Positions 5,847 to 59,529 of a stretch of 64,000 nt of DNA are shown here, in pieces (within the stretch, counting starts at the first letter, position 1; every line of letters begins with the position of its first letter). The stretch is from assembly GCA_038524795.1 (NCBI GenBank), contig JBCBIJ010000014.1:5441-69440 (forward strand), given 5' to 3'. Under the pieces are notes generated by a model, which saw only the letters and a program-made list of their open reading frames with translations, was not told the origin of the DNA and did not search any database. Made by a program: the position numbers and the translations under genes. Source of the DNA: Pseudomonadota bacterium (lineage in GTDB: Bacteria > Pseudomonadota > Gammaproteobacteria > Steroidobacterales > Woeseiaceae).

Positions 5847-5877
5847 GACGAATCAGGCGGGTCAGATGCAGCGCGCC

Positions 5878-7012: not shown

Positions 7013-7115
7013 GACACACCTACGTTTGTGGTATCGCCGTGGACTCGCTGTTGCCGCGTTTTGGGTGCCGCCTGCTCTCGCTTTGGTTGTGTTTGCGCGC
7101 TAAGATCGCGGCGAA

Positions 7116-7378: not shown

Positions 7379-7399
7379 TGCCCGGGCGAGGACGAGACC

Positions 7400-10543
<3,144 letters not shown>

Positions 10544-38787: not shown

Positions 38788-39429
38788 ATGAACACCGTTA
38801 CACAGCGACTGGTGCGGCGCCTGGCCGCGGTGGGGCTCGCGGCGTCACTCGGGGTGCCTGCAGCGCAGGCCGAGGTGCTGCACGCCGCTGAGACGGGCTT
38901 TGTCGTTCGTCACGAGCGAACAGTCCTTGCACCGCCAGAAACGGCCTGGCGCATGTTGTTGGGCCACGTCGGCGAGTGGTGGCACCCGGACCACACCTAC
39001 TCGGGCAATGCCGAGAGCCTCTACATCGAGGCGCGACCGCTGGGCTGCTTCTGCGAGCGTATCGGGACCAATGACGTGGTCGTCCACCTCACGGTGACCA
39101 TGCTGCGCGAGAACAAGCTGCTGCGGCTGACGGGTGGTCTTGGGCCTCTGGGACTCATGGGTGTTGATGGCAATCTGACCGTCAGCCTGTTGCCCAGCGA
39201 AGATGCCACCGATATCGCGCTTGAGTACCGGGTGGGGGGTTATGACCCCGAAGGTCTGGAGCGCATTGCGCCGGCCGTGGACGGCGTGCTCGGTGAGCAG
39301 ATGGACCGGTTTGTCCGCTTTGTCGAGTCGGGTTCACCCGACGACTCGGTCCCGGAAGATGTCATGCCGGGTACGGAGATGGACGCGCCGGCAGACGTTG
39401 CAACGGACGCGCCTGCGACCGAGGGCTAA
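38788..39429 (+). CDS. SRPBCC (AHSA1/START-like) family exported protein
   Basis: ATG at 38788 with a signal peptide ending AAQA. The ~150-aa core matches the SRPBCC pattern, followed by an acidic C-terminal tail. Confidence 0.6.
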   Translation: MNTVTQRLVRRLAAVGLAASLGVPAAQAEVLHAAETGFVVRHERTVLAPPETAWRMLLGHVGEWWHPDHTYSGNAESLYIEARPLGCFCERIGTNDVVVHLTVTMLRENKLLRLTGGLGPLGLMGVDGNLTVSLLPSEDATDIALEYRVGGYDPEGLERIAPAVDGVLGEQMDRFVRFVESGSPDDSVPEDVMPGTEMDAPADVATDAPATEG

Positions 39430-39459
39430 AAAAAGAGCCGGTGCCATTACGGCACCGGC
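39428..39459 (-). terminator. intrinsic terminator (minus-strand operon; possibly bidirectional)
   Basis: GCCGGTGCC-attac-GGCACCGGC is a 9-bp perfect stem (39437-39459). An A7 run at 39428-34 gives a U-tract on the minus strand. It sits between convergent genes. Confidence 0.75.
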
Positions 39460-39514: not shown

Positions 39515-41095
39515 TCAGACGAGCGGATTGAAGGCGGTCAGGCTGTCGCGCAGCTGTACGTTACCCAGGCCGTGGTTCGGGAACAGGACTTCGAAGTTGG
39601 CCTGTTCACCGTGAATGGCGAGGTAGTTGAGCACCACCGCTTCCACGAGCAAGTTCACGTTGTTGGCGATCGGGCTCGAGCCTGTTTCACCAGAACCATC
39701 CGGTCGGAAGTAACCGATCTGCTGGTGGTTTTCGGGGGGTAGGCTGTCGCCCGAGAACAGCTGCGGTCTGCCGTTCGGGTTGTAGACCAGGATGAACGAC
39801 GCCGCCGTACTCTGGTTGTCCGAGGCCCATTCAAGCTTGCCGCGACCGTCGACGGTATCGTCGATCATGCCGTTACTCGACAGCGAGCCGTCCGAGAACA
39901 CGTACATGAACAGCGGGACGCCACGGCGAGCCGCGTACTCGAGCGCGGCGCCCATGCAACGACCGGCGCGCAAGTCACGCACCTCACCGCGTGCACGACG
40001 ACCACCGTGGTAGTCGTAGCCGCCCATGGTGATGGTGCCGGCGCCCGCGTAACCATTGGCAACGAGCTTCATGACCGAGGCGGTCTTGCGGAATTCGCGG
40101 TCGTCGTCGTACTCGGCCTGCGAGAAGATGCCTGCGGGACCCACGAGGTCCTGGTCGAGCGACGGGTTGAGCTGCGAGGGGTCACCAAAGCGGTCGGCGA
40201 GGTCGGCTGACTTCAGGTAACCGCAAGCGACAAGGTCTTTGACCACGGCATCTGCGTCGATCTTGGTATTCACCTGACCGAGCTTCTGGTCACTGAGTCG
40301 GTACACAGACTCGAGCACGGCTACTGCGTCTTCCTGAGAGAGCAGGCCGACGAGTTTGCCCGTGTCTACAAGGCCTGTAACGTCGCCGGGGCGATCGACT
40401 TTCGAGGGCCGCAGGGCCGGATCGATCATTGCGGCGGGGGCCATCGAGTTACCACCGGACTCCGACGTACGCGATCCGATCAGATCGAGCAGCTCACCGC
40501 GTGCACCCGTTTTGGCGATGCCGTACATCGGGTTGTGCGGGTTGTTGCCCGTGTCGTTCTCCGAACGTGCCACGAGGATGGCCCCGTTGGTGTTCGCGAG
40601 CGTCGCCGGTGAGGCGCGCTCGAGGATCCCGCGTAGAAACGCGGAGTCCGAGTGGAACGCCAAACCCAGGTCCGTGTTGATGAAGTCGTTGGTACCCGTA
40701 TCGGGGTTGACCGCATCAGGTGTCTGGTCACCGGGCAGGCCGAGCTTGTTGTAGCCAGCCGTCGACAGGAAGTCCATCTGCCCGCCGGGACCGCCGACGA
40801 GCACGTTGGAGCCCGCCATGTTGGCGCCACCCGCGAGGTCGAAGCAGACGAACGGCACCTTGCCGGCGCCTGCCAGTTCGAGGCCGCAGCCCGCACGCAG
40901 CGGTTGCAGGTCAGATGAGAGCGCGGCGCGCGCTTCCATCGGATTGGCGAACAGGCTGAACAGGCCGCCCGACATGAGCGTCGATGTACCCGCCATCAGA
41001 CCCGTGGCGACAAACTCACGACGAGTCGTCGGGCGTTTGTGATCCGGGTGCAGAATCGGCGTATCCGGGTGCAGATTCTCTTTTCGCTTTGCCAT
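39515..41095 (-). CDS. Tat-signal periplasmic protein, DUF1501-like (unknown function)
   Basis: AGGAAC RBS and ATG at 41095. Twin-arginine TRREFVATGLMAG. FDLAGGANM, MGGYDYHGG and VFSDGSLSSNG are reminiscent of DUF1501 (GG-D, GG-D-H, SEFGR) motifs. From memory. Confidence 0.6.
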   Translation of the reverse strand: MAKRKENLHPDTPILHPDHKRPTTRREFVATGLMAGTSTLMSGGLFSLFANPMEARAALSSDLQPLRAGCGLELAGAGKVPFVCFDLAGGANMAGSNVLVGGPGGQMDFLSTAGYNKLGLPGDQTPDAVNPDTGTNDFINTDLGLAFHSDSAFLRGILERASPATLANTNGAILVARSENDTGNNPHNPMYGIAKTGARGELLDLIGSRTSESGGNSMAPAAMIDPALRPSKVDRPGDVTGLVDTGKLVGLLSQEDAVAVLESVYRLSDQKLGQVNTKIDADAVVKDLVACGYLKSADLADRFGDPSQLNPSLDQDLVGPAGIFSQAEYDDDREFRKTASVMKLVANGYAGAGTITMGGYDYHGGRRARGEVRDLRAGRCMGAALEYAARRGVPLFMYVFSDGSLSSNGMIDDTVDGRGKLEWASDNQSTAASFILVYNPNGRPQLFSGDSLPPENHQQIGYFRPDGSGETGSSPIANNVNLLVEAVVLNYLAIHGEQANFEVLFPNHGLGNVQLRDSLTAFNPLV

Positions 41096-41118
41096 GGTAT
41101 CGGTTCCTGAGTTGATTC

Positions 41119-43581
41119 TTACTGCACCAGCATCGAGGCGCTGCCCAACGCTGCTGCGCAGACGGCCGTGCCGACGGTTTCGGTGCGGTCTGCCGCACAG
41201 TTGTTGCCACACGCGGTGAGGCGGGTAATGAGCGCGTTCAGCTCGCCTTCCATATCGGCGCGCAGCGGCTCCGTGCCCAGATTGACGCCGGCCACGGCGT
41301 CAATGACCGGGTCGATCACCAGATCACGGCCCGCCTGGCTGGAGAACGCGCTGCCAGCCGGTGCATTGAAGTCCACGCCCGGGAAGAACGAGGCGCGCAA
41401 CGCCGTGTCCTGAACCAGCGCGTTGCAGTACTCCACCGCCATCTGCGAGATGCCGACCTGCTGTGAGGCCAGGAAGCCACCGAACAGCGGACTCGAAGGC
41501 ATCTGCTGACGCACGGCTTCGTAGGTCAGCATGACTTCGGGGTGCGTACGCGGCACGCCCGTCGCCTGCGCCATCGTTTCGGCAACTTCGTCGAAGATGC
41601 GCACGCCGATGTCGACCTGGTCCGGAATGTCCGCCGCGTCACCCGATGCCAGCGGCACGGGGTCGGTGCGAACGTTCACGTTGTCACCCAGCACGTCGAA
41701 GGTCAGGAAGAACTCGTCGGAGTCGGGGCCCTGTTCCTGCTGGAACACGGCACCGTACGGCGACAGCGGCTGACCGAGCTCGGCGAGCAGATCACTCGAG
41801 AGGCTCTCGTTGACCGTGCGGAAGGCCTGGCCAACCGGTGCTTCCACACCGTTCACGCCGACACGGATGCCCTGGACGGGGATGCCGTCCCAGGTGGCTG
41901 CGTTGTCGAGCGAGATGAAGTGCGGCGCGTTGAAGAGGTAGCTGTAGTTGTCGAACTGGGCGACTTCGAACAGCACGTAGGCCTCAGGCACATCCACAAG
42001 GTGCGAGACGCTGAACAGCAGGTAGAACTTCTCACCGACGCCGGCATCGAAGTTCTGCAGGATCTGTTCGGGCGTCAGCACGCGGTTGTGAATCGAGACG
42101 TAGCGGAACGTACCGGCGAACAGGCCGTCACTCGACACTTCGTTGCCGAGCACGAACGCGAACGTGTCGTCCCAGTCGGCGATGCTGCCACCACCGGTTT
42201 CATCGTTGATGTCCACGAGCTGGCCGTTGAGCCAGAGGCTGCGGCCATTGACGGGGTCCCAGTTGGCGACGACGTGCTGCAGCGTTGCCTGCAACAGTTC
42301 GTCGGCCGAAGGCGTTTGCAGCGCAGGCATACCGTTGCCGTCCGTGACGTCAGAGCGGTTTGCGAACGTGTAGTCGTAAAGCGTCTGGCCCAGCGTAAAA
42401 TTCCGCGCCGTCGGGCCGGCCGAGTAACTCACAATGCGCGACTCTTCCTGGACCACGTTGGCGGGCACAACCCAGGCTTCGACCGAGTACTCGCCCGTTG
42501 CCTTGATCATGTCATGCAGCTTCTTGCTGTCCGCGGTACGGCCCTGGGCCTTACCGTTGCGGATCTCGATGCCCCAGCCGCCGACCCAGCCGACGTCACC
42601 GGACAGCGTAAGGTCGAGCGCCGGCGACACGCCACTCGTGTCGTAAGCGATGAGGCCTTCGCCCGTCTTGAACTCATACGTCGCAATGGCGTTGGCTTCG
42701 TAACGGCTGCCGCCACTGGCGACGATGCCGTCAAGAATCGTGAGTGCCTTACTGACGGTCAGGCTCGGGTCCACCGCAGTCGGTGTGATCGAGTTGGCCA
42801 TGGCTTCGATGGCCGCCTGCATTTCATTCGCATCCGAGCCACAGTCGCTCCAGCAGTTGTGGAACTCGTTGCGCAGGCGCAGTACGAGGCGCGAGAGTGC
42901 CGGGTCGTTGAGCTTGATCTTCGGCTTGGCCGCGTCGTAGGCGACCTCGACATCAGGCTCAGCGAGGAACGGCGACTGCGCGAACTGAGCACCCGAGGTG
43001 TGGCAGCCCGTGCAGTACTGCGTGAGGATCGGGTGCACGGTGCTTGCGAACAAAGCGGGGTCACCCGGGAAGTTGCGGCTCGCGCCCGGATCCTTGATGA
43101 CCGGTGACTCGAGGTCGATCGTGCGGCCGCCGCCGGCAACGAGGTCGCCCGCCCAGCCAGAAATCCACGTTCCCATGAGGTCGCCACACACAGCGTCGCT
43201 ACCCGACCAGCAGTTGTGGCCACCGGCCACCTTGGTCGCGAGCAGCGAATCGTTCGGTGAGCTCAGGTCGACAGCCGTGTTGGCTGCCTCGTAAGCGAGG
43301 TTGATATCGTCATCCCGGGCGAAGACGGGCGCTTGCCCACCTTGGCCGTGGCAAGCGCCACAGCCCGCTTCGGACTGAATGTTGTCCCACAGGTTCAGCT
43401 TAAAGGACTGAACGTCTGCCGTGGCCGGTGCCGGGCCGTTGTAGCCCGACGTATCGGGTACGGACGTGACCGGGTTGACCTGCGTTTCAGCGCCGCCTCC
43501 CGAGCAGGCACTGATCACCGCTGAGGCGGCGAGAAGGCCGGTCAGGCGGCTGACGGTAATGGCTGTTTTATGCATCGTCAT
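41119..43581 (-). CDS. lipoprotein with two CxxCH (PSCyt-like) modules and a LamG-like jelly-roll domain
   Basis: GAGGA RBS and lipobox VISAC. CGACHGQGG and CTGCHTSG are each followed about 40 aa later by an HNCW motif. YSVEAWVVPAN...LQHVVANWDPVNGRSLWLNGQLV is the LamG_3 pattern. 820 aa. Confidence 0.65.
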   Translation of the reverse strand: MTMHKTAITVSRLTGLLAASAVISACSGGGAETQVNPVTSVPDTSGYNGPAPATADVQSFKLNLWDNIQSEAGCGACHGQGGQAPVFARDDDINLAYEAANTAVDLSSPNDSLLATKVAGGHNCWSGSDAVCGDLMGTWISGWAGDLVAGGGRTIDLESPVIKDPGASRNFPGDPALFASTVHPILTQYCTGCHTSGAQFAQSPFLAEPDVEVAYDAAKPKIKLNDPALSRLVLRLRNEFHNCWSDCGSDANEMQAAIEAMANSITPTAVDPSLTVSKALTILDGIVASGGSRYEANAIATYEFKTGEGLIAYDTSGVSPALDLTLSGDVGWVGGWGIEIRNGKAQGRTADSKKLHDMIKATGEYSVEAWVVPANVVQEESRIVSYSAGPTARNFTLGQTLYDYTFANRSDVTDGNGMPALQTPSADELLQATLQHVVANWDPVNGRSLWLNGQLVDINDETGGGSIADWDDTFAFVLGNEVSSDGLFAGTFRYVSIHNRVLTPEQILQNFDAGVGEKFYLLFSVSHLVDVPEAYVLFEVAQFDNYSYLFNAPHFISLDNAATWDGIPVQGIRVGVNGVEAPVGQAFRTVNESLSSDLLAELGQPLSPYGAVFQQEQGPDSDEFFLTFDVLGDNVNVRTDPVPLASGDAADIPDQVDIGVRIFDEVAETMAQATGVPRTHPEVMLTYEAVRQQMPSSPLFGGFLASQQVGISQMAVEYCNALVQDTALRASFFPGVDFNAPAGSAFSSQAGRDLVIDPVIDAVAGVNLGTEPLRADMEGELNALITRLTACGNNCAADRTETVGTAVCAAALGSASMLVQ

Positions 43582-43591
43582 CGTTCTGTCC

Positions 43592-44761
43592 TCAGTCGCC
43601 CATGCAGTAAGTGGCTGCTTCGGCGAAGGTGGTCTTCAACCGGTAGTTGCTGCCCACGAGCGACGCCGTCATGGCGTCGACCTGTGCGCGGTCCGCGGCA
43701 TCGCCGGGCTTACGCAGGCAGACGTTCTCGAACACCTTCTCGACCTGGCACTGGGCAAACGCCTGGCTGCCCGCGAGTTCGCGGCCCATCGACTTGGCGC
43801 CTTGGCCTGACCCCGTCTGTGCGGGGTCCCAGCCCAAAAGGGCGTTGCGACCGTCGCGCCAGTAGTTCGACCAGGCGTCGTCCGGCGTACGGAAGCCGAA
43901 CGGGAAGTTGGTGTCGTTGTTGAAGTACTTGGGATGAACGGCGCCGTCGGTGTATTCGATGCGGCCCGTCTCCTCGTTGTAGTTGTAGAAGGCAAACGCC
44001 TGCGCGAGCGGGTCCATCCCGCTGTGGCAGCTAATGCAGTTACCCAGGAACAAACGGCTGTCGCCACCCGGGCTGCGCGTGACGTCCTGGCGGATACGAT
44101 CCGGCGGACGGGTCACGTCAGCCACCTGCTCGAGGTCGCGGCAGAGGTGGTTCATGAGGGTGAAGCGCAGCATCGCGCGGTTCGTACCCGCGATGAAGAA
44201 GGCTTCAGCGGCGGCACGTGTGGTCATGACGCCGGCGGTCGCAGCGGCTGGCAGGTCGGTTTGTGCCGACTGCGTGGTCGCGACAAGGTTGGCCTGCAGG
44301 TCGATCGCGTTCTGCTCGAGCGCCTCGTAGTGATCGTTGTTGGTCATCGAGTAGCCGGGGATACCCAGGCCGGCTGCGCCAACATAGAGGTGATCGCCAA
44401 ACAGCACTTCGTTGAAGGGCACGTCATCGCGAATCATGCCGATTACCGTTGCCGTGTAGTCGTTGAGCGGCGCGAAGATATCGCCGTCACGATTCGTCCA
44501 GGGCGTCGCCCAGTTTTTCAACGTCACGCTGTAAAACGCGCTGTTCTGCATTGCCGTCTCGGCGGCTGCGATGGCGTTGCCGCCAGCGACCTGCGCCTCC
44601 ATGGCATCGAGTACGGCCGCCGTCGGGGGTACGCCCGCGAGTCGGTCGTGAATGCGCTTGGCCTGCTCGCGCGGACCCGCCCAGGCGCTGGCAATGGACA
44701 ATGCCAGCGTGAGTCCCGCTGCCCCAAGTCGTGCCGTTCGTGAAATCGTCTGTGTATTCAT
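43592..44761 (-). CDS. exported CxxCH protein, DUF1585/DUF1588-like (unknown function)
   Basis: ATG at 44761 with signal ending ASAWA. AGVMTTRAAAEAFF and NCISCHSGMDPLAQAF resemble the DUF1588/DUF1585 pattern. 389 aa. Confidence 0.6.
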   Translation of the reverse strand: MNTQTISRTARLGAAGLTLALSIASAWAGPREQAKRIHDRLAGVPPTAAVLDAMEAQVAGGNAIAAAETAMQNSAFYSVTLKNWATPWTNRDGDIFAPLNDYTATVIGMIRDDVPFNEVLFGDHLYVGAAGLGIPGYSMTNNDHYEALEQNAIDLQANLVATTQSAQTDLPAAATAGVMTTRAAAEAFFIAGTNRAMLRFTLMNHLCRDLEQVADVTRPPDRIRQDVTRSPGGDSRLFLGNCISCHSGMDPLAQAFAFYNYNEETGRIEYTDGAVHPKYFNNDTNFPFGFRTPDDAWSNYWRDGRNALLGWDPAQTGSGQGAKSMGRELAGSQAFAQCQVEKVFENVCLRKPGDAADRAQVDAMTASLVGSNYRLKTTFAEAATYCMGD

Positions 44762-45658
44762 TTCGACCCTGCTTTGACCGATCGCCGTGCCACATGGCAG
44801 CGGCGGTGACCTCGTTCGTTTTCCGTCTGCGGTGGTCTCAAGCACACCGCGTTGCGTCCCGTTCGCGAGCCCTGCCGGAGTCTGATCGCAGTTCACTGTC
44901 GTTGCAGTGATGGCGCTCACAATCCCGACGCTGGTGTGGCGTCGCACCCACATGTGGGCAGCTCTTGGCGGTTCGCTACACGGAAGTGGTTGCAATCGGC
45001 GTGCCAGCCCTGGGCGTTTCGGGCGTCTGAGGGCCGTGCGGCAGGAAAATCAACGGCTTAGCAAAAAAGGCCCCGTGTCGCAGGTGACGAGCATATGTAA
45101 AGCCGTTGTCGGGGGGTTGGGACAGTAGGGTGGCAGGGCGTAGTTAAATCATTGAAAAATAACAAATAAAAATTTGTCGCTGGAGTGAGACAGGGGTGCC
45201 GCGCATTGGCACCAGTGGTTTTGCCCGATGCGCGTGCGCCAGTTCACAAAAATGCGTCGTTCGCCGAAGACCGGTCTGTTTGGACACCAAATCAGGCTGA
45301 TTAGACGCAAGACCCCTAGTTCTCTTGGGTTTTGCGTGCGGGCGTATTTGCGGAATTCGGCGCTGTCGGACGCCGCCAGGTGTGCTGTCGTCTTTTCGAG
45401 ACATTACGAGTCACGACACCGATTTCTATACTCGCGCCGTTCCGAGGTTGCTGTGGCAGGTGCCCAGCTGGGTCGGAGCGCACAGTTCGGACCGATGCCA
45501 ACTGGCGCTGCGGGCGAACTGTGAAGTTGTTAACAGAATGCGCGACGGGCGATCGTCACCATGCCGTTACGTTCAATCGGCAGGTATGCGGTGCAGTCAG
45601 GTCTGGGACCTGGGCACGGCGAAGGCGACGCCTCGAAAAGCGCTTCGAGGTGCTCCCA

Positions 45659-48316
45659 ATGGACAAAGCGGTAACGGTGAAAACAAGTCATACAACGTGT
45701 GTCCGCGCGCTCGCACTCGTGCTGGCGCTCGCAACGGCGGCAGGCTGCAGTTCCTCCGGCAGCGAAGGCGACCAGGTCGGCTTCGGTGCGGGCCAGGCGC
45801 CTGATCCCGTCGCGCTCGAATTTCCGATTGTTTACGTCCAACGCCCGATTCCCCTCGATGACGACGGCGCGCTCGTGGAGGAAGACATCCGCGAGGTGCT
45901 GTCCTTCAACCCTGGTGCTGACCTGTTTTTCCGCGACCGCGCGTCGCCCAGTACGCCCGATGTGAATCTCACGGGCGACTTCACCATGGGTCTGGCCGAT
46001 ATTCGGGACGTCACCGTGTCGTTCGATGCGACAAAGGTGGCGTTCGCGATGCGTTACCCGTTCGATCCCGACGCCGACGACGAGGAGCAGGTGACGTGGA
46101 ACATCTGGGAGTACGACATCCCGAGCGACACGCTGCGGCGTGTGATCTCGTCTGACATCACGGCGGAAGCGGGCCACGACATCGCCCCGCAGTTCCTGCC
46201 CGACGGGCGACTCGTGTTCAGTTCGACGCGCCAGCGCCAGTCCGTGGCCATCCTGCTCGACGAGGGCAAGCCGCAGTTTCCGGCTTTCGACGGCGACGAC
46301 AATGAGCCCGGCTTCCTGCTGCACACAATGACGACCGACGGTACGGACATCGAACAGATCGGCTTCAACCAGAGCCATGAACTCAATCCGGTCGTACTCG
46401 ATGACGGCTCAGTCGTGTTTTCGCGTTGGGACAACGTCGGCGGCACCAACGAGTTCAACCTCTACAAGATGAATCCCGACGGCACAAACCTGCAGCTGCT
46501 GTACGGCGCGCAGAGCCATGATGTCGACAACGACGGTCAGCAGGAGCAGTTCATGCAGCCGCAGGTGCTGCCTGATGGCACGCTCATCTCGCTGCTCAAG
46601 CCGTTCACCGGGCCGACGACGGGCGGCGCACTCGTCGATATCGACGTGTCGACCTACCTTGAGAACACGCAGCCCAGTGTGAATAACACGGGTATGGCCG
46701 GCCCTGCCCAAACGCCGGCGACGATCAACAATGTGCTTGCCGCCGCCGACCAAATATCGCCGGGCGGCCGCTATCGCTCGGTGTATCCGCTGCGTGACGG
46801 CACGGACCGTCTGCTCGTAAGCTGGAGCCAGTGCCGCTTGCAAGACATCGACATGGTCATTCTTGCCTGCACACCTGACAACCTGGCTAACCCGGATCTC
46901 ACCCAGGCACCGCCGCTGTACGGCATCTGGATGTACGACCGCGAGCAGGAAACGCAGGCGCCCGTCGTGACGCCTGTCGAGGGCGTGATCTTCTCGGACA
47001 TCGTTGTGGCGGAGCCGCGCGATGTGCCGCTGGTGCTGCTCGCAGGTTCCAATACCTTCCTGCTCGATCCGGATATCGGTGACGAAGGTGTTGGTGTACT
47101 CAACATTCGCACCGTGTACGACGTTATGGGTGTCGACACAGCGCCAGGCGGCATCGACGTGCTCGCCGATCCTGCGCAAACCCTCGCTGCAGAGCGTCCC
47201 GCACGCTTCCTGCGACTCGAGAAGGCCGTTTCCATGCCCGACGAGGAACTCGTCGATGTGCCGGGATCAGCCTTTGGCGTCGGCGGTGGCCAGGGCTTCC
47301 GCGAAATTCTGGGTTACACGATGATCGAGCCCGATGGCTCGGTCATGGTCAAGGTGCCGGCCGACATCGCCTTCACCATGTCGATCACCGATGCCAACGG
47401 CCGCCGCATCTCGGCGCGTCATAACAACTGGCTACAGATTCGCCCCGGCGAAGAGCTCAAGTGCCAGGGCTGCCACGATGGCGGCAGCGGCCTGTCACAC
47501 GGTCGCGCCGATGCGTTTGCCTCGGCACACGACGGCGGGCAGAACATTAGCGTGCCATTTCCGAACACGGACCCTGCGCTGTTCATCGACACGCCGGGCG
47601 AAACGATGGCCGAGGTGCGCGCCCGCGTGTCGTGCTCAACGGATAACTGCTCGTCGCTGCAGCCGACCGTCGACGTGACCTATCGAGACGTTTGGACCGA
47701 TGAGGTCGCCGCCGGTCGCCAGGCCGATCCTGATATCGATCTGCGTTACGCCGACCTGCTGTCGCCACGTCCCGTGCAGCCGTCCTGCGAGCAGAATTGG
47801 ACAGCCAGCTGCCGCACGGTCATCCATTACGAGGATCACATTCACCCGCTGTGGTCGGTGCCGCGCGTGACACTCGACGGCATGGGTAACGTGGTCAGCG
47901 ACTTCACTTGCATTTCCTGCCACACGGATCGCGATGCCGCGAACCAGTTACAGGTGCCTGCCGGCCAGCTCAACCTGACGGACGGCCTCGCGCCTGAGGA
48001 GCAGGATCAGTTCGAGGCTTACCGCGAACTCGTGATTGCCGACGTCGAGGTCGAATTGAACATGGGTGCGCTGCAGCCGCGTCTCGTGCAGGTTGATACG
48101 GACCCGGTTACGGGCGATCCGATTTTCGCGACCGTTAATGTCCCGCCAAGCGCGCGCGGCGCGGGCGCGAATGCGTCACCTGTGTTCTTTAGCCGATTCG
48201 CGCCGGGCGGCACGCACGCCGGCTACCTCAACGAGGGTGAGTTGCGCCTGATTGCCGAGTGGCTCGACATCGGTGCGCAGTACTACAACGACCCATTCCG
48301 GGTACCCCAGGACTAA
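45659..48316 (+). CDS. lipoprotein with PD40/TolB-like beta-propeller repeats and C-terminal double CxxCH region
   Basis: Lipobox ATAAGC. Repeats are DIAPQFLPDGRLVFSSTR, LNPVVLDDGSVVFSRWD, YKMNPDGTNLQLLY and PQVLPDGTLISLL. Has KCQGCHDGG and TCISCHTDRD. The track ORF start at 45332 is rejected. Confidence 0.65.
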   Translation: MDKAVTVKTSHTTCVRALALVLALATAAGCSSSGSEGDQVGFGAGQAPDPVALEFPIVYVQRPIPLDDDGALVEEDIREVLSFNPGADLFFRDRASPSTPDVNLTGDFTMGLADIRDVTVSFDATKVAFAMRYPFDPDADDEEQVTWNIWEYDIPSDTLRRVISSDITAEAGHDIAPQFLPDGRLVFSSTRQRQSVAILLDEGKPQFPAFDGDDNEPGFLLHTMTTDGTDIEQIGFNQSHELNPVVLDDGSVVFSRWDNVGGTNEFNLYKMNPDGTNLQLLYGAQSHDVDNDGQQEQFMQPQVLPDGTLISLLKPFTGPTTGGALVDIDVSTYLENTQPSVNNTGMAGPAQTPATINNVLAAADQISPGGRYRSVYPLRDGTDRLLVSWSQCRLQDIDMVILACTPDNLANPDLTQAPPLYGIWMYDREQETQAPVVTPVEGVIFSDIVVAEPRDVPLVLLAGSNTFLLDPDIGDEGVGVLNIRTVYDVMGVDTAPGGIDVLADPAQTLAAERPARFLRLEKAVSMPDEELVDVPGSAFGVGGGQGFREILGYTMIEPDGSVMVKVPADIAFTMSITDANGRRISARHNNWLQIRPGEELKCQGCHDGGSGLSHGRADAFASAHDGGQNISVPFPNTDPALFIDTPGETMAEVRARVSCSTDNCSSLQPTVDVTYRDVWTDEVAAGRQADPDIDLRYADLLSPRPVQPSCEQNWTASCRTVIHYEDHIHPLWSVPRVTLDGMGNVVSDFTCISCHTDRDAANQLQVPAGQLNLTDGLAPEEQDQFEAYRELVIADVEVELNMGALQPRLVQVDTDPVTGDPIFATVNVPPSARGAGANASPVFFSRFAPGGTHAGYLNEGELRLIAEWLDIGAQYYNDPFRVPQD

Positions 48317-48330
48317 TCGAAGGACCGCCA

Positions 48331-49104
48331 GTGAGCCCACGCCTTAGTTCATGCATCTCCGCAGTATTCGCGATGGTCGTGGTGCTTGCCGGCACGCTGG
48401 CAGTCGCGCCTGCGGCATTCGCCGACGAGAAGCCGCTGCGTACGGTTGAAGTTGCGGATCCGTACCTCGAGATGCACACGGGGCCGGGCAAAGGGTATCC
48501 GATCACGAACGTCGTCGAACGCGGCGAGTCGGTACAGATCGTTCGCCGCAAGACGGACTGGTTCAAGGTGCGCACGGACCGCGGACGTGAAGGCTGGGTC
48601 AATATCGTGCAGCTTGAGCTGACGCTCGACGAATTCGGCGAGCGAACGGCCATCGAACGGATCGGTCGCGACGAGTTTCTCCAGACGCGCTGGGAAACAG
48701 GAATCATGACGGGCGACTTTGCGGGCTCCGACGCGCTTGCGGTCTATGGCGGCTACTCGATCAGCCGCAACCTGTCGGTGGAAGTTTGGGGCTCGCAACT
48801 TGTGGGCAACTTCTCGAATGGCTGGCTTGGCACTGTCAACGTCGTGCACGAAACGTTCCCTGAATGGCGCGTCTCGCCGTACTTCACGATCGGCACCGGC
48901 ATTGTCAGCACGTCGCCGAAGTCGACGCTCGTATCGCAGGAGGACCGCACCGACCAGGTGGCGCTCGTCGGCGGCGGGTTTCGCGCCTATGTCACGCGCC
49001 GCTTCGTGCTGCGCGCCGAATACAAAAGTTACGTGGTCCTCACGAGCCGCGACGAAAACGAGGAAGTGGAAGAATGGAAAGTCGGCTTCGGTTTCTTTTT
49101 CTGA
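48331..49104 (+). CDS. exported SH3b domain + outer-membrane beta-barrel protein
   Basis: AGGA lies 6 nt before the GTG at 48331. Signal ends AAFA. SH3b pattern YPITNVVERGESVQIVRRKTDWFKVRTDRGREGWV. Alternating beta-strands end in GFGFFF. Confidence 0.6.
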   Translation: MSPRLSSCISAVFAMVVVLAGTLAVAPAAFADEKPLRTVEVADPYLEMHTGPGKGYPITNVVERGESVQIVRRKTDWFKVRTDRGREGWVNIVQLELTLDEFGERTAIERIGRDEFLQTRWETGIMTGDFAGSDALAVYGGYSISRNLSVEVWGSQLVGNFSNGWLGTVNVVHETFPEWRVSPYFTIGTGIVSTSPKSTLVSQEDRTDQVALVGGGFRAYVTRRFVLRAEYKSYVVLTSRDENEEVEEWKVGFGFFF

Positions 49105-49751
49105 GCGTGACTGTACTGGTCATGCCGGCGCTGACGGGCTGCTCGTCGCTGCCGTTCTTCGGCCCGGGTGAAGACACCCAGGTCGCAGAGGCGCCCGAGC
49201 AGGTCATCGAGCCCGAGGTGGAGCGCCGCGAGATCGTGCAGCCGAGGATCGATACCGAGGACTTCGAAATTGGTGTGTACGCAGGCGGTATGAGTGTCGA
49301 AGACTTCGGCGTGAATGCGGTCTACGGCGCAACAATCGCCTACCACCTTAATGAAGCGCTGTTTGTCGAGGGCGCTATCGGTCGCACCGACACGGAAGAG
49401 ACGAGCTTCGAGCTACTCAGTGGTGCAGCGCAGATTCTCAACGACGACGAGCGCGAGTTCACCTACTACAACGCATCGATCGGATGGAACATCTTTCCGG
49501 GCGAGGCGTTTTTCGGCCGCGGTCGCGCGTTTAACCAGTCCTTCTACGTGATCGCGGGGCTGGGCAGTACGCGGTTTGGCGGCGACGACCAGTTCACGAT
49601 CAACGTCGGCGCTGGCTACCGCCTGTTGTTCAACGATGTCTTCGCGCTCCGTGTCGACTTTCGCGACCACGCCTTTGATACCGATCTGCTCGGTGAGAGC
49701 AAGACGGCACACAACCTGACCGGCCACGTCGGTTTCACGTTTTTCTTCTGA
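49074..49751 (+). CDS. outer-membrane beta-barrel lipoprotein (paralogous barrel)
   Basis: ATG at 49074 with lipobox LTGC. Alternating beta-strand pattern ending GFTFFF. Overlaps the previous gene by 31 nt. Confidence 0.6.
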   Translation: MESRLRFLFLSVTVLVMPALTGCSSLPFFGPGEDTQVAEAPEQVIEPEVERREIVQPRIDTEDFEIGVYAGGMSVEDFGVNAVYGATIAYHLNEALFVEGAIGRTDTEETSFELLSGAAQILNDDEREFTYYNASIGWNIFPGEAFFGRGRAFNQSFYVIAGLGSTRFGGDDQFTINVGAGYRLLFNDVFALRVDFRDHAFDTDLLGESKTAHNLTGHVGFTFFF

Positions 49752-49767
49752 TTGCGAGGTAAGACCC

Positions 49768-50013
49768 ATGCACCGCAAAACCACACATCGAATCGCCCGC
49801 GTCGCACTGGCGCTGTGTCTCGTCACAGCCTCAGCCGCCTGCTCGAACATCGAACCCTGGGTCAAACCCTATGAGCGCGATCGCCTCGCTGATCCGATCA
49901 TGTTCCTTGACCACGACCCCGTATCGACCTCTTACATGTACCACGTGTTCGAGTCGCGCGAGGGCGCACGCGGCGCCGAGGGCGTCGTTGGCGGCGGCTG
50001 CGGCTGCAACTGA
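49768..50013 (+). CDS. DUF4266-like small lipoprotein
   Basis: 81 aa with lipobox SAAC. Has WVKPYERDRLADPIM and a C-terminal GGGCGCN tail. Family assignment is from memory. Confidence 0.6.
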   Translation: MHRKTTHRIARVALALCLVTASAACSNIEPWVKPYERDRLADPIMFLDHDPVSTSYMYHVFESREGARGAEGVVGGGCGCN

Positions 50014-50045
50014 TCGAGACCACGGAACACCGGACGGAATTCGCA

Positions 50046-51179
50046 ATGCGTAATCGCCTGCTGCTCATCATCGGACTCATCGCCACGTTGTGGACGGCGA
50101 CGGCTGAATCTGCCGTACTGCCCGACGAGCGTACCGACTTGCTCTACCACCGCTACGAAGGTGACAACATCACCATCGAAGGTCCTTCGGTGCTGATTCG
50201 CAAGAACGTTGGCAAGAGTGTTTCCGTTTCAGCGAACTACTACGTCGACATGATCACGAGTGCATCGATCGACGTTGTGACGACGGCGAGTCCGTACGAG
50301 GAAGAGCGCAAGCAGGGCTCCATCGGTGTCGACTACCTGCGTGGCGGCACGATGATGTCATTCGGCCTGACGCGCAGCACGGAGTCCGATTTCGAAGCGG
50401 AGACCTGGAGCCTCGCGGTCAGCCAAAACCTGTTTGGTGACCTCACCACGGTTACGATCGCCTACAGCCTCGGTGACGACGTTGTCGGCATGTCCACCGA
50501 TGAGACATTCGCGCGCGATGTGGCGCGCCAGGCCTACGGCATCGGCATCAGCCAGATCTTCACCAAGAACCTCATCATGGGCTTCAATTTCGAAGCCATT
50601 ACCGACGAGGGCTTCTTGCGTAACCCGTACCGCTCGGTGCGCTATCTCAACGACGATGGCACGAGCTTCAGCTACCAAAGCGAGCGTTACCCGAACACGC
50701 GAACGAGTTCGGCTGCCTCCATCTCGGGTCGCTACTACCTGCCGTACCGCGCTGCGATTAACGGCCAGATCCGTGGCTTCTCCGATACCTGGGGCATCAC
50801 GTCGATGACCTATGAGCTCGGGTACACGCACCCATGGCGCGACTTCACGTTCTCGACGCGCGTGCGCTACTACACCCAGGACCAGGCCGACTTCTATTCG
50901 GATCTGTTCCCGCGTTTTGACTTCCAGAACTTCCTGGCGCGCGATAAGGAGCTCTCGACCTTTACGAGCACCACGTTCCGCGCCGCCGTGGCCTGGGACA
51001 TCGGGACCGACGGATTTGGGCCGTTCAGCAAAGCGCGACTCACCGCATTCTGGGACCACATCCTTTTCGACTACGAGAACTTCAGCGACCTGCGTGTTGA
51101 GGGCGTACTGCCCGGCGAGGAGCCGAATTTCACATTCGAAGCGGACGTCGTCCAGCTGCTGTTCTCAGTCTGGTACTGA
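50046..51179 (+). CDS. DUF3570-like outer-membrane beta-barrel protein
   Basis: Signal peptide followed by LLYHRYEGDNITIEGPS and long alternating beta-strands ending LLFSVWY. It follows DUF4266, a pairing I recall from other genomes. Confidence 0.6.
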   Translation: MRNRLLLIIGLIATLWTATAESAVLPDERTDLLYHRYEGDNITIEGPSVLIRKNVGKSVSVSANYYVDMITSASIDVVTTASPYEEERKQGSIGVDYLRGGTMMSFGLTRSTESDFEAETWSLAVSQNLFGDLTTVTIAYSLGDDVVGMSTDETFARDVARQAYGIGISQIFTKNLIMGFNFEAITDEGFLRNPYRSVRYLNDDGTSFSYQSERYPNTRTSSAASISGRYYLPYRAAINGQIRGFSDTWGITSMTYELGYTHPWRDFTFSTRVRYYTQDQADFYSDLFPRFDFQNFLARDKELSTFTSTTFRAAVAWDIGTDGFGPFSKARLTAFWDHILFDYENFSDLRVEGVLPGEEPNFTFEADVVQLLFSVWY

Positions 51180-59340: not shown

Positions 59341-59529
59341 GTCAGGCTGCTCCGGTTTGGCGGGGGTTGGCGTCGCGCCACAGCGGGCGAATGATGCGAC
59401 CGGCGGCAAGCTGACACGCGGCCGCAGCGGGACAGCCGTTATACTGTGCCCGCGCCGTTGCAACAACGTCGACCCCGCCCGGACAACCCGAACCGCCTCG
59501 CAAACAGGCAGCGCGACATCAGGACCCCC

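What the first reader, a model, noticed from the sequence alone, without database searches (positions are those of the whole stretch)
39515..51179. Bidirectional 11.7-kb locus of eight exclusively exported proteins of unknown function - candidate novel envelope system
Two divergent operons share a ~900-bp control region. The minus operon has gaps of 10 and 23 nt and a strong terminator at 39428-39459. It encodes a DUF1588-like CxxCH protein, an 820-aa lipoprotein with two CxxCH modules plus LamG, and a Tat-signal DUF1501-like protein. The plus operon has gaps of 14, -31, 16 and 32 nt. It encodes an 885-aa beta-propeller lipoprotein with two CxxCH motifs, an SH3b-plus-beta-barrel protein, a second beta-barrel lipoprotein, a DUF4266-like mini-lipoprotein and a DUF3570-like barrel. 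Every product has a Sec, lipoprotein or Tat signal, and none has an assigned biochemical function. Five CxxCH motifs in three families, a phosphatase/sulfatase-fold-like Tat protein and three predicted outer-membrane barrels together suggest a periplasm-to-outer-membrane assembly. Redox, metal or heme handling, or binding of a surface polymer via LamG, SH3b or the propeller, are possibilities, and all of these functions are speculation. The CxxCH-protein plus DUF1501 pairing is reminiscent of the abundant, uncharacterised PSCyt/DUF1501 gene pairs of Planctomycetes, here embedded in a different genomic background.
Basis: partly seen in the sequence, partly recalled or inferred. Interest (0 to 1): 0.75.

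Follow-up and report, generated by a model that had tools for sequence, protein, structure and literature searches.

The report
Conserved outer-envelope haem–flavin redox gene cluster
This is a real eight-gene cluster, kept intact in hundreds of sediment, soil and symbiont Gammaproteobacteria, that joins a known but unexplained flavin-carrying outer-membrane module to a look-alike of the anammox hydrazine-synthase alpha subunit and three other exported proteins; what it acts on is still unknown.

Summary

The eight genes are one conserved unit.
- A scan of species-representative genomes found at least 572 relatives of the 885-aa protein (P4).
- 51 of 52 loci with enough flank keep all eight genes in the same order. 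The exception carries assembly gaps.
- All five CxxCH motifs are conserved in 64-74 orthologues.

Three annotations need correcting.
- P4 is a full-length structural homologue of hydrazine synthase alpha (Foldseek E 4e-29). It lacks the Tyr591 ligand and any beta/gamma partner, so it is not an anammox enzyme.
- DUF3570 and DUF4266 are not blanks. A DUF3570 protein was shown to be flavinylated by ApbE within a thioredoxin/DsbD-linked system (Méheust 2021). The motif here is a Gly-to-Ser/Thr variant.
- The Tat protein (P3) is not detectably DUF1501.

The 897-bp spacer holds the window's only perfect sigma-54 promoter, aimed at the minus operon. It also holds all three TGTC-N10-GACA palindromes in the window.

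My best reading is a periplasm-to-outer-membrane thiol–flavin–haem electron-transfer system with an unknown substrate. I class it as a new variant of a known kind, interest about 0.66.

The parts
39437..39459 (-). Intrinsic terminator ending the minus operon
   Evidence: 10-bp stem with 8 G-C pairs and a 3-nt loop, followed by TCTTTTTTTA.
39515..41095 (-). P3: 526-aa Tat-exported protein, family not in Pfam or NCBIfam, possibly alkaline-phosphatase-superfamily fold. One of the two most conserved proteins of the cluster.
   Evidence: The twin-arginine motif is conserved, and DLAGGAN and GGYDYH are near-invariant. Pfam, NCBIfam and PDB sequence searches found nothing. The AF2 model has pLDDT 59.6 and pTM 0.67. 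All top Foldseek hits are alkaline-phosphatase-superfamily proteins, but the best E is only 7e-3. hhalign against DUF1501 gave 4%. Median identity across orthologues is 62%.
41119..43581 (-). P2: 820-aa lipoprotein with two tandem haem-c modules (CxxCH ... HNCW), a LamG domain and an unassigned C-terminal domain
   Evidence: Laminin_G_3 hits the window protein at E 2e-16 and all 31 orthologues tested. C74xxCH, C190xxCH and both HNCW motifs are invariant or nearly so.
43592..44761 (-). P1: 389-aa Sec-exported mono-CxxCH protein, a distant compact relative of the PVC PSCyt3/PSD2 proteins
   Evidence: CxxCH at 242 is conserved in 74 of 74 sequences. Sub-threshold PSD2 hits occur in 30 of 35 orthologues and PSCyt3 hits in 27 of 35.
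44992..45006 (-). Sigma-54 (-24/-12) promoter pointing at the P1-P2-P3 operon
   Evidence: TGGCACGCCGATTGC is the only zero-mismatch match to TGGCAC-N5-TTGC in the 64-kb window. The equivalent site is present in 25 of 65 orthologous spacers, always facing P1 and never P4.
45107..45124 (.). Palindrome TGTC-N10-GACA, site 1 (candidate enhancer-binding-protein site)
   Evidence: The pattern occurs only three times in the window, and all three lie within about 300 bp of this spacer. It is conserved in related spacers.
45175..45192 (.). Palindrome TGTC-N10-GACA, site 2
   Evidence: In other Woeseiaceae-type spacers the nearest site lies about 168 nt upstream of the sigma-54 promoter.
45386..45403 (.). 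Palindrome TGTC-N10-GACA, site 3. It is followed by the conserved GACATTAC block and TATACT (45427-45432), a candidate plus-operon promoter.
   Evidence: The GACATTAC...TATA(C/A)T block is shared by 23 of 65 spacers.
45520..45557 (+). Conserved promoter-proximal block TGTGA..GTTAAC..CGTC, about 100 nt upstream of P4
   Evidence: It is conserved in the window, L008 and L009. The related form TGTGATCGCGTTAACGGTA occurs in 23 of 65 spacers. Its function was not tested.
45659..48316 (+). P4: 885-aa lipoprotein, a three-domain dihaem cytochrome c homologous to hydrazine synthase alpha (beta-propeller, middle domain with haem I, C-terminal domain with haem II)
   Evidence: PF18582 hits at E 7e-14. 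The AF2 model has pLDDT 88.3 and pTM 0.86. Foldseek finds 5c2v_A at E 4e-29 with TM 0.62 over 959 columns; the next hit is TolB at 1e-10. C602xxCH aligns with the haem alpha-I site and H853 with alpha-His772. C30, both CxxCH motifs, H614 and H853 are invariant or nearly invariant in 42 diverse homologues.
48331..49104 (+). P5: SH3b domain plus small outer-membrane beta-barrel
   Evidence: SH3_3 hits at E 1e-10. OMP_b-brl and TIGR04565 hits are sub-threshold. The protein ends in FGFFF.
49074..49751 (+). P6: lipoprotein with an OMP_myx_plus beta-barrel, translationally coupled to P5
   Evidence: TIGR04565 hits at E 6e-45. The 31-nt overlap with P5 is conserved in 68 of 73 loci.
49768..50013 (+). 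P7: DUF4266 mini-lipoprotein ending in GGCGCN (CXC thiol motif)
   Evidence: Pfam E 3.5e-22. The C-terminus GGCGCN is found in 66 of 67 sequences and the lipobox Cys in 67 of 67. The CXC motif is described in PMC8238504.
50046..51179 (+). P8: DUF3570 predicted outer-membrane barrel with two candidate FMN-attachment motifs, DMITSAS (68-74) and DVVTTAS (76-82)
   Evidence: Pfam E 4e-34. The motifs are conserved in 71 sequences, whether or not ApbE is encoded locally. Motif 1 aligns with DTVSGAS of a canonical Vibrio DUF3570 that sits next to ApbE and DsbD. The protein ends in SVWY.

Best explanation
The eight genes encode one extracytoplasmic redox system, built from three modules and located between the periplasm and the outer membrane.

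Module 1 (P7 and P8) is the known DUF4266/DUF3570 unit.
- P7 is a small lipoprotein with a C-terminal Cys-Gly-Cys.
- P8 is a predicted outer-membrane barrel. By homology, ApbE attaches FMN covalently at Ser74 and Ser82.
- In about half of the related loci this module carries its own TlpA-like thioredoxin. In about a quarter it carries ApbE.
- This fits the published model in which reducing power arrives from the inner membrane through DsbD-type thiol carriers.

Module 2 (P4, P5, P6).
- P4 is a lipoprotein with the fold of hydrazine synthase alpha. It has a bis-His relay haem (C751xxCH plus H853) and a second haem (C602xxCH) at the position of the catalytic haem alpha-I.
- Two small barrels accompany it. 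They are made from overlapping genes, and one has an SH3b domain. I infer that they hold P4 at the outer membrane and cell wall.

Module 3 (P1, P2, P3).
- P1 (mono-haem) and P2 (dihaem, with LamG) are cytochrome-like proteins.
- They are paired with the strongly conserved Tat-exported protein P3, probably a metal-dependent enzyme.

Inferred flow: thiols pass electrons to the flavins, the flavins pass them one at a time to the haems, and the haems deliver them to a small substrate at P4 haem I and/or at P3. The direction could be the reverse.

What is shown and what is inferred:
- Shown here: gene structure, export signals, motif conservation, co-conservation of the genes, the hydrazine-synthase-alpha fold, and the promoter motifs.
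- Shown elsewhere: flavinylation of a DUF3570 homologue.
- Inferred: localisation, electron path, physical contacts and substrate.

In the window's lineage the minus operon is switched on through sigma-54 and an unidentified enhancer-binding protein.
For: Unity of the eight genes:
- 51 of 52 loci of at least 20 kb, from species spanning Woeseiaceae, Steroidobacteraceae, Nevskiaceae, Kangiellaceae, Pseudomonadales-labelled MAGs and Ca. Thiodiazotropha, keep all eight genes in the same order. The cultured isolate Aliiglaciecola sp. LCG003 has the same locus plus a thioredoxin gene.
- The single exception contains 300 N and truncated genes.
- Loci whose P4 is only 38-40% identical still keep the set.

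The two operons are linked:
- ApbE's known substrate family, DUF3570, is in the plus operon. Yet ApbE sits on the minus-operon side in 9 loci and on the plus-operon side in 9. In L005 it lies directly downstream of P3 and the methyltransferase.
- The accessory set of a 170-210-aa protein and TPR proteins follows the minus operon in most loci that carry it and the plus operon in the rest. Where the plus-operon flank extends far enough, it continues into ExbB (L088, L092).

Redox cofactor sites:
- All five CxxCH motifs are conserved.
- GGCGCN is conserved in 66 of 67 DUF4266 proteins.
- The DUF3570 motifs are conserved, and motif 1 aligns with the canonical SGAS of a Vibrio Trx-DUF4266-DUF3570-ApbE-DsbD cluster.
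- DUF3570 flavinylation and the DsbD/thioredoxin model are published (PMC8238504).

P4:
- Foldseek finds hydrazine synthase alpha at E 4e-29.
- Both haem sites and the His772 equivalent are conserved.

Tight coupling of P5 and P6: the overlap is kept in 68 of 73 loci.

Regulation: a perfect sigma-54 promoter and three palindromes.
Against: - No inner-membrane electron donor is encoded in the core.
- The 64-kb window holds no ApbE, thioredoxin or DsbD.
- The P8 motifs read TSAS and TTAS rather than the published [S/T]GA[S/T]. Their flavinylation is untested.
- Haem binding by P1, P2 and P4 is predicted from motifs only.
- P3 has no recognisable family, and its model is of low confidence.
- The modules can exist apart. 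P4 with its barrel proteins occurs without the other genes in L089 (L091 is similar, but its contig is only 4 kb), and the DUF3570 module stands alone in Vibrio.
- No expression, interaction or phenotype data were found in the searchable literature.
- No substrate can be named.
Confidence: 0.5

Rival explanations
1. These are three independent systems that stay adjacent only through inherited gene order: a DUF3570 flavin module, a hydrazine-synthase-alpha-like cytochrome with its barrels, and a PSCyt-like/Tat trio. They have no shared function.
For: Each module occurs alone elsewhere: P4 with barrel proteins only in L089 (and possibly L091, a 4-kb contig), and Trx-DUF4266-DUF3570-ApbE-DsbD only in Vibrio. 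The sigma-54 promoter serves only the minus operon.
Against: The order is kept across several families even where flanking genes differ completely. ApbE and the accessory 170-210-aa/TPR genes attach to either operon in different genomes. That is hard to explain if the operons are unrelated.
Confidence: 0.15
2. The cluster is a periplasmic nitrogen-oxide or hydroxylamine-handling enzyme system. P4 uses its haem at the alpha-I position for N-N or N-O chemistry related to that of hydrazine synthase.
For: P4 matches hydrazine synthase alpha over its full length, and both haem sites and the His772 equivalent are conserved. NnrS and MOSC genes lie just downstream in some Woeseiaceae loci. HzsA-like proteins outside anammox bacteria have been read as nitrogen-loss markers (PMC11828985).
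Against: The Tyr591 haem ligand of hydrazine synthase is absent. No beta/gamma (cytochrome c peroxidase-like) partner is present in the window locus, and the eight-gene order (plus the accessory genes listed) leaves no place for one in the related loci. Hägglund et al. found that key residues are not conserved in non-anammox homologues and rejected an anammox role (PMC12758564). The NnrS/MOSC neighbours are lineage-specific and absent from the window.
Confidence: 0.1
3. The cluster is a polymer- or ester-processing system like that proposed for the PVC PSCyt/partner pairs. P3 hydrolyses a phospho- or sulfo-ester on a glycan or envelope polymer bound by the LamG and SH3b domains, with the cytochromes assisting.
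For: P2 has a LamG domain and P5 an SH3b domain. P3's top fold matches are all phosphatases, sulfatases or related enzymes. P1 carries weak PSCyt3/PSD2 signals. PVC PSCyt genes carry carbohydrate-binding modules and neighbour sulfatases (PMC5615132).
Against: The fold matches are not significant: no hit has E at or below 0.001 and TM is about 0.2. No glycoside hydrolases, sulfatases or transporters co-occur. The cluster appears once per locus and is highly conserved, unlike the expanded, variable PVC families. This reading does not explain the flavin/thiol module.
Confidence: 0.12
4. The cluster handles a metal (iron, copper or manganese) by redox chemistry at the outer membrane, for uptake or detoxification.
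For: Méheust et al. noted VIT1 iron transporters in 25 DUF3570 clusters. Heavy-metal ATPase and Cus/Czc-type efflux genes flank the locus in L005. A MerR-family regulator and a Cu/Zn superoxide dismutase lie near the window locus. ExbB follows the plus operon in some genomes.
Against: None of these neighbours is conserved across loci. No metal-binding motif or transporter belongs to the core.
Confidence: 0.08

Closest known systems
DUF3570/DUF4266 flavinylation-associated extracytosolic electron-transfer clusters ('DsbD systems') of Méheust et al. 2021, eLife (PMC8238504)
   Same: P7 and P8 are clear members of DUF4266 and DUF3570. The C-terminal CXC is present. The candidate FMN motifs align with the canonical site. 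Many orthologous loci also carry the TlpA-like thioredoxin (25 of 52) and ApbE (12 of 52).
   Different: The window locus has no ApbE, thioredoxin or DsbD. The motif has Ser/Thr in place of Gly. The module is fixed inside an eight-gene unit with five haem-c sites, two extra barrels and a Tat protein. Neither the main text of that paper nor the truncated supplement I could search describes such a unit.
Hydrazine synthase alpha subunit (Kuenenia stuttgartiensis, PDB 5C2V) and the 'HZS_alpha domain' homologues surveyed by Hägglund et al. 2025 (PMC12758564)
   Same: P4 has the same three-domain architecture (propeller, middle domain, C-terminal domain). It has CxxCH at the haem alpha-I and alpha-II positions. 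The distal His772 equivalent (H853) is kept.
   Different: There is no Tyr591 ligand and no beta/gamma partner genes. P4 is a lipoprotein and comes from aerobic or facultative Gammaproteobacteria. Its partners are small outer-membrane barrels. Unlike the clade I homologues in that paper, the His772 equivalent is retained.
PSCyt/PSD cytochrome-like proteins with adjacent DUF1501 or DUF1552 partners in Planctomycetes and Verrucomicrobia (He et al. 2017, PMC5615132)
   Same: CxxCH proteins, one with a Laminin_G_3 module, lie next to a Tat-signal protein of unknown function. P1 gives weak PSCyt3 and PSD2 matches.
   Different: No domain reaches Pfam thresholds. P3 gives no match to any alkaline-phosphatase-type Pfam family and is not detectably DUF1501 by profile comparison. 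DUF1552 itself was not compared profile-to-profile. The cluster is single-copy and highly conserved rather than expanded. The CxxCH functions are split over two genes.
Porin-cytochrome outer-membrane electron conduits (MtrCAB type)
   Same: Lipoprotein cytochromes are encoded next to outer-membrane barrels (from my own knowledge of MtrCAB).
   Different: There are no multihaem (deca-haem) proteins. The P5 and P6 barrels are small. Flavin would be covalently attached to a barrel protein rather than bound to a cytochrome. No homology was detected beyond weak generic cytochrome hits.

Membership tests
DUF3570/DUF4266 flavinylation-associated system (Méheust 2021) | A DUF3570 protein is present | tested here: met
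   PF12094 hits at E 4.3e-34, 118.5 bits against a cut-off of 25.
DUF3570/DUF4266 flavinylation-associated system (Méheust 2021) | Two [S/T]GA[S/T] flavinylation motifs in DUF3570 | tested here: inconclusive
   The window has TSAS (71-74) and TTAS (79-82). Motif 1 aligns with DTVSGAS of an ApbE/DsbD-linked Vibrio DUF3570. Some orthologues have Gly at this position. Loci with ApbE carry the same Ser/Thr variant. The chemistry is untested.
DUF3570/DUF4266 flavinylation-associated system (Méheust 2021) | A DUF4266 protein with a C-terminal CXC | tested here: met
   PF14086 hits at E 3.5e-22. The protein ends in GGCGCN, which is conserved in 66 of 67 sequences.
DUF3570/DUF4266 flavinylation-associated system (Méheust 2021) | ApbE and a thioredoxin-like protein in the cluster (DsbD in a subset) | tested here: not met
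   tblastn with the ApbE and thioredoxin proteins of L005 found no match anywhere in the 64-kb window, and no DsbD was seen among the window genes scanned. Among 52 orthologous loci, thioredoxin is present in 25 and ApbE in 12. The rest of the source genome could not be searched.
Hydrazine synthase (anammox HZS alpha-beta-gamma) | Alpha-subunit three-domain fold with two haem-c sites | tested here: met
   Foldseek finds 5c2v_A at E 4.2e-29, target TM 0.62, over 959 columns. The CxxCH motifs at 602 and 751 are conserved.
Hydrazine synthase (anammox HZS alpha-beta-gamma) | Haem alpha-I ligated by Tyr591, with His587 diverted to zinc | tested here: not met
   The alignment of CQGCHDGGS with CSGCHYGS leaves no Tyr at His+4, where P4 has Ser610. 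The family consensus is CNGCHxxxSxxPHGR. The zinc ligand Cys303 was not examined.
Hydrazine synthase (anammox HZS alpha-beta-gamma) | Distal His772 of haem alpha-II | tested here: met
   H853 aligns with chain residue 745, which is alpha-His772, and is invariant in 42 homologues.
Hydrazine synthase (anammox HZS alpha-beta-gamma) | Adjacent beta (propeller) and gamma (cytochrome c peroxidase-like dihaem) subunit genes | tested here: not met
   Gene calls with Pfam labels for the window locus and nine other loci show no such gene next to P4. The conserved eight-gene order in the 80 scanned loci leaves no place for one.
PVC PSCyt/PSD protein plus DUF1501 pair | PSCyt and PSD domains in the cytochrome-like protein | tested here: inconclusive
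   Only sub-threshold hits were found: PSD2 in 30 of 35 orthologues (best E 1e-6) and PSCyt3 in 27 of 35 (best E 0.02). P2 has no PSCyt or PSD hit.
PVC PSCyt/PSD protein plus DUF1501 pair | The partner protein belongs to DUF1501 (PF07394) | tested here: not met
   No Pfam hit was found for P3 or 30 orthologues at E up to 10. hhalign of the P3 family against 30 genuine PF07394 proteins gave 4% probability, with only the Tat signal aligned. Both alignments have low diversity, so very remote homology is not excluded.
Alkaline phosphatase superfamily (for P3) | Alkaline-phosphatase-type alpha/beta core with metal-ligand Asp/His residues | tested here: inconclusive
   All 50 top Foldseek hits are alkaline phosphatases, sulfatases, LtaS-type enzymes or cofactor-independent phosphoglycerate mutases. 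However, the best E is 6.8e-3, TM is about 0.2 and the model pLDDT is 59.6. Invariant D86, D361/H363 and D402 are compatible with metal ligands, but this is inference only.
Sigma-54-dependent operon | -24/-12 promoter TGGCAC-N5-TTGC upstream of the operon | tested here: met
   A perfect match at 44992-45006 (-) is unique in the window. An equivalent site is found in 25 of 65 spacers, always facing P1.
Sigma-54-dependent operon | A cognate enhancer-binding protein and its upstream sites | tested here: inconclusive
   Three TGTC-N10-GACA palindromes lie 100-400 bp upstream. No GAFTGA-containing protein is encoded in the window or within 10 kb in any locus.

The most novel reading that the evidence does not exclude
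The cluster is a new kind of trans-envelope redox machine. A covalently flavinylated outer-membrane barrel (DUF3570) would carry electrons to or across the outer membrane, as a flavin-based counterpart of the porin-cytochrome conduits. It would be coupled to a hydrazine-synthase-alpha-like haem enzyme and a Tat-exported metalloenzyme. In many genomes a TonB/ExbB-type energising set would accompany it. Solving it would assign a first function to three large 'dark' families at once: the HZS_alpha homologues, DUF3570/DUF4266, and the PSCyt-like/partner pairs.
Probability: 0.15. Interest if true: 0.9.

Novelty: new variant of a known kind. Interest (0 to 1): 0.66.

Why it matters
- The cluster is widespread. 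It is found in at least 572 species-representative genomes. Hosts include Woeseiaceae (by my own knowledge among the commonest bacteria of marine sediments), soil Steroidobacteraceae and chemosynthetic symbionts.
- It bears on a current dispute. Proteins like P4 carry the 'hydrazine synthase alpha' domain, which recent surveys have used as evidence of anammox potential outside Planctomycetes (PMC11828985). A later study disputes that reading (PMC12758564). This cluster shows a large family of such proteins in a quite different, non-anammox context, and so warns against that use.
- It gives the orphan DUF3570 flavin module a fixed set of haem partners.
- It places all of these families in cultured, potentially tractable Gammaproteobacteria: Aliiglaciecola sp. 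LCG003, Lentisalinibacter sediminis and Steroidobacter denitrificans. Their function could be tested there.

Tried and rejected
- DUF1501 identity of P3. Pfam and NCBIfam found nothing. A PDB profile search found nothing. I fished genuine PF07394 proteins with a bait sequence written from memory, accepting hits only by their precomputed Pfam label. hhalign then gave 4%. The DUF1552 half of the bait returned nothing in the top 120 hits, so DUF1552 was not tested by profile comparison.
- A regex search for proteobacterial DUF1501-type motifs in the fetched loci found none.
- P1 against P2 by hhalign: only the CxxCH aligned.
- PDB sequence searches for P1 and P2 gave nothing useful.
- Rfam on the whole window and on the spacer gave no hits.
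- The sigma-70 consensus scan found no promoter in the region.
- The hairpin at 45195-45213 is only marginally more stable than shuffled sequence, z -1.6.
- No enhancer-binding protein (GAFTGA) was found in the window or in any locus.
- The supplement of the eLife paper is truncated and gave no information on neighbours.
- The JDVT-CTERM link to DUF4266/DUF3570 (Haft preprint) does not apply. None of the eight proteins ends in a transmembrane helix followed by an Arg cluster (my reading of the sequences).
- An anammox reading of P4 was rejected (see the membership test).

Full report
**1. The observation**

ORF listing and translation and independent gene calls on four near-identical MAG contigs agree on eight genes.

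| Gene | Length | Coordinates | Strand |
|---|---|---|---|
| P3 | 526 aa | 39515-41095 | - |
| P2 | 820 aa | 41119-43581 | - |
| P1 | 389 aa | 43592-44761 | - |
| P4 | 885 aa | 45659-48316 | + |
| P5 | 257 aa | 48331-49104 | + |
| P6 | 225 aa | 49074-49751 | + |
| P7 | 81 aa | 49768-50013 | + |
| P8 | 377 aa | 50046-51179 | + |

- The gaps are 23, 10, 897, 14, -31, 16 and 32 nt.
- The five CxxCH motifs are at P1 C242, P2 C74 and C190, and P4 C602 and C751.
- A strong terminator lies at 39437-39459 on the minus strand.
- Every product begins with a Sec signal (P1, P5, P8), a lipobox (P2, P4, P6, P7) or a twin-arginine signal (P3). This is read directly from the sequences.

**2. Family assignments**

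Pfam and NCBIfam give these results.
- P2: Laminin_G_3, E 2e-16.
- P4: the HZS_alpha middle domain (PF18582), E 7e-14, plus PD40.
- P5: SH3_3, plus a sub-threshold outer-membrane barrel hit.
- P6: TIGR04565 OMP_myx_plus, E 6e-45.
- P7: DUF4266, E 4e-22.
- P8: DUF3570, E 4e-34.
- P1: only a sub-threshold PSD2 hit. Scanning 35 orthologues shows the weak signals recur: PSD2 in 30 and PSCyt3 in 27.
- P3: no hit in Pfam, NCBIfam or PDB sequences, even across 31 orthologues at E up to 10.

**3. Are the genes co-conserved?**

*How large the families are.* P4 has thousands of relatives. At least 3,832 proteins score at E up to 1e-5. There are 541 clusters at 50% identity with E below 1e-30.

*The genome scan.* I scanned one genome per GTDB species using an alignment of 42 diverse P4 homologues. 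This found at least 572 species with a relative and returned 80 loci. Nearly all are labelled Gammaproteobacteria:
- Woeseiaceae, Steroidobacteraceae, Nevskiaceae and Chromatiales
- MAGs labelled Pseudomonadales
- Kangiellaceae
- Ca. Thiodiazotropha and a Lamellibrachia symbiont
- the cultured Lentisalinibacter sediminis, and a MAG labelled Steroidobacter denitrificans

*Order and motifs.*
- Six-frame BLAST shows all eight genes, in the same order and orientation, in 51 of 52 loci of at least 20 kb.
- The exception, L060, contains 300 N and truncated genes, so it is an assembly artefact.
- Aliiglaciecola sp. LCG003, a cultured isolate with a complete genome, has the same locus plus a thioredoxin gene.
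- Loci whose P4 is only 38-40% identical also keep the eight genes.
- All five CxxCH motifs are conserved in 64-74 orthologues.
- The P5/P6 overlap of 31 nt is kept in 68 of 73 loci.
- P1 and P3 are the most conserved proteins, with median identity of 62%.

*Accessory genes among the 52 long loci.*
- A cytoplasmic class I methyltransferase downstream of P3: 31 loci.
- A TlpA/ResA-like thioredoxin between P6 and P7: 25 loci.
- ApbE: 12 loci.
- A 170-210-aa exported protein followed by large TPR proteins, continuing into ExbB where the plus-operon flank reaches far enough (L088, L092).

ApbE lies on the minus-operon side in 9 loci and on the plus-operon side in 9. The 170-210-aa/TPR set also switches sides. 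ApbE's known substrate family is encoded in the plus operon. This shuffling therefore argues that the two operons serve one function.

*Modules also occur alone.*
- P4 with barrel proteins only, in L089; L091 looks the same but its contig is only 4 kb.
- Trx-DUF4266-DUF3570-ApbE-DsbD only, in Vibrio aquimaris.

The unit is therefore a composite of three modules.

**4. P4 is a homologue of hydrazine synthase alpha**

- The AlphaFold model built on 42 homologues is confident, with pLDDT 88.3 and pTM 0.86.
- Foldseek against the PDB puts Kuenenia hydrazine synthase alpha (5C2V chain A) far ahead of anything else. It scores E 4e-29 with target TM 0.62 over 959 columns. The next hits are TolB propellers at 1e-10.
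- In the sequence alignment, P4 CQGCH (602-606) matches the haem alpha-I motif.
- The C-terminal HAGYLNEGELRLIAEWLDIGAQYYNDP matches the segment containing alpha-His772. P4 H853, the equivalent residue, is invariant in the family.
- The unusual Tyr591 ligand is missing. An invariant His614 follows the motif instead.
- No beta or gamma subunit gene lies near P4 in the window locus or in the nine other loci for which annotated gene calls were returned. The conserved gene order in the 80 scanned loci leaves no room for one.

P4 therefore works from the same scaffold but is not hydrazine synthase. Hägglund et al. 2025 reached the same conclusion for other non-anammox homologues and found no homologue with a known function. 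The terms Gammaproteobacteria and Pseudomonadota do not occur in their main text. A 2025 survey used such proteins as anammox markers.

**5. P7 and P8 are a known module**

Méheust et al. 2021 showed three things.
- Chlorobium luteolum DUF3570 is flavinylated by its ApbE at two [S/T]GA[S/T] motifs.
- The usual cluster is ApbE, DUF3570, a thioredoxin-like protein and DUF4266, often with DsbD.

Findings here:
- P7 ends in GGCGCN, which is found in 66 of 67 orthologues.
- P8 carries DMITSAS (68-74) and DVVTTAS (76-82). Both are conserved in 71 sequences, with or without a local ApbE.
- The first motif aligns with DTVSGAS of the Vibrio protein.

So the sites are homologous but have Ser/Thr in place of Gly. 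Whether they are flavinylated is untested. The window itself holds no ApbE or thioredoxin, and no DsbD was seen.

**6. P1, P2 and P3**

- P2 has two tandem modules, each with an invariant CxxCH and an invariant or nearly invariant HNCW. A LamG domain and an unassigned C-terminal domain follow.
- The P3 model is weak, with pLDDT 59.6 and pTM 0.67. Its top 50 Foldseek hits are all members of the alkaline phosphatase superfamily, yet none is significant.
- hhalign of the P3 family against genuine DUF1501 proteins gave 4%.
- Some NCBI records name P3 homologues 'GspF'. Nothing here supports that name.
- The likeness to the PVC PSCyt/partner pairs, whose function is unknown (PMC5615132), is one of organisation. 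Demonstrable membership was not shown.

**7. The spacer between the operons**

- TGGCACGCCGATTGC at 44992-45006 (-) is the only perfect sigma-54 consensus in the 64 kb, and it faces P1.
- TGTC-N10-GACA occurs three times in the window, at 45107, 45175 and 45386. All three lie in this spacer. The chance expectation for the whole window is 1.5.
- 25 of 65 orthologous spacers have the sigma-54 site facing P1, and none faces P4. These are the long spacers, and the carriers that have a family label are Woeseiaceae. In most of them a palindrome sits about 168 nt upstream.
- Two conserved blocks lie upstream of P4: GACATTAC...TATACT and TGTGA..GTTAAC..CGTC.
- No enhancer-binding protein is encoded nearby.
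- Other lineages have spacers as short as 215 nt, mostly under 500 nt, without these elements. This regulation is therefore lineage-specific.

**8. Interpretation**

The best-supported reading is a single periplasm-to-outer-membrane redox system that uses thiols, covalently bound flavin and five c-type haems.
- P4 haem I and/or P3 would be the reactive sites.
- P5 and P6 would anchor the assembly.

Localisation, contacts, direction of electron flow and substrate are all inferred. I give this reading 0.5. The rivals and their confidences are:
- Independent modules held together by synteny: 0.15.
- Nitrogen-oxide or hydroxylamine chemistry: 0.10.
- PVC-like polymer or ester processing: 0.12.
- Metal handling: 0.08.

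**9. Novelty**

Each module has known relatives, and one has published biochemistry. The fixed eight-gene combination, its wide distribution and its sigma-54 control did not turn up in the literature I could search. I class it as a new variant of a known kind.

Noticed in passing
window 51165-52574 (-): A 469-aa exported protein converges on P8 and overlaps its end by 15 nt. It has no Pfam or NCBIfam hit but carries a conserved HExxH motif (VIVHEFVHH), suggesting a secreted zinc metalloprotease. The locus of three related species (L008, L009, L011) also holds an orthologue at 30-35% identity: directly after P8 in L008 and L009, about 2 kb further downstream in L011.
   Followed up: partly
window 53827-59466 (-): A very long UvrA-like ORF (1,879 aa from stop to stop, called as 1,837 aa) with UvrA_DNA-bind and UvrA_inter domains. 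It is about twice the length of ordinary UvrA (roughly 940 aa, from my own knowledge). A 338-aa MerR-family regulator lies next to it (52722-53738).
   Followed up: no
L005 826-1452 and upstream; L088 6462-13248; L092 15971-22637; L093 1-3834: In loci that carry the thioredoxin, a 170-210-aa exported protein and two large TPR proteins (about 620 and 940 aa, YbgF/BamD-like) follow one or the other operon. Where the plus-operon flank reaches far enough (L088, L092), a third TPR protein (about 230 aa), a roughly 97-aa protein and ExbB follow as well. This may be a TonB-type energising set linked to the system. It is absent from the window.
   Followed up: partly
L005 3111-4469; L006 2180-3571; 31 of 52 related loci: A 450-465-aa cytoplasmic class I SAM methyltransferase lies directly downstream of the P3 orthologue in most Woeseiaceae-type loci. 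It has weak CARME/Methyltransf_11 hits and an N-terminal CxxC...CxxC motif. It is absent from the window locus.
   Followed up: partly
window 45195-45213 (+): The palindrome GGTGCC-N7-GGCACC is followed by a T-rich run and abuts the second TGTC-N10-GACA site. It is conserved in L008 and L009. It could be a protein-binding site or a weak terminator; its fold is only marginally more stable than shuffled sequence (z -1.6).
   Followed up: partly
P3 homologues P0142, P0153, P0220, P0228: Several NCBI records name this Tat-signal family 'general secretion pathway protein GspF'. Nothing in the sequence or model supports that name, so it looks like a propagated misannotation.
   Followed up: no
L015 and L063: Two contigs with the typical gammaproteobacterial locus are labelled 'uncultured Bifidobacteriaceae' and 'Rhodospirillaceae' MAGs. 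These are probably binning or labelling errors.
   Followed up: no
L094 (Vibrio aquimaris pTHAF100_a, 4531-9408): A textbook Trx-DUF4266-DUF3570-ApbE-DsbD cluster lies on a 1.3-Mb replicon. No annotated feature is listed for this stretch in the plasmid collection's gene table. I used it here as the canonical comparator.
   Followed up: yes
L006 15919-17626; L007 15697-16095: In some Woeseiaceae loci, NnrS and a small MOSC-domain gene follow the plus operon, and a conserved LemA-DUF2207-rhomboid block comes after them. NnrS and MOSC proteins are linked to NO and N-hydroxylated-compound stress (from my own knowledge). The association is lineage-specific.
   Followed up: no
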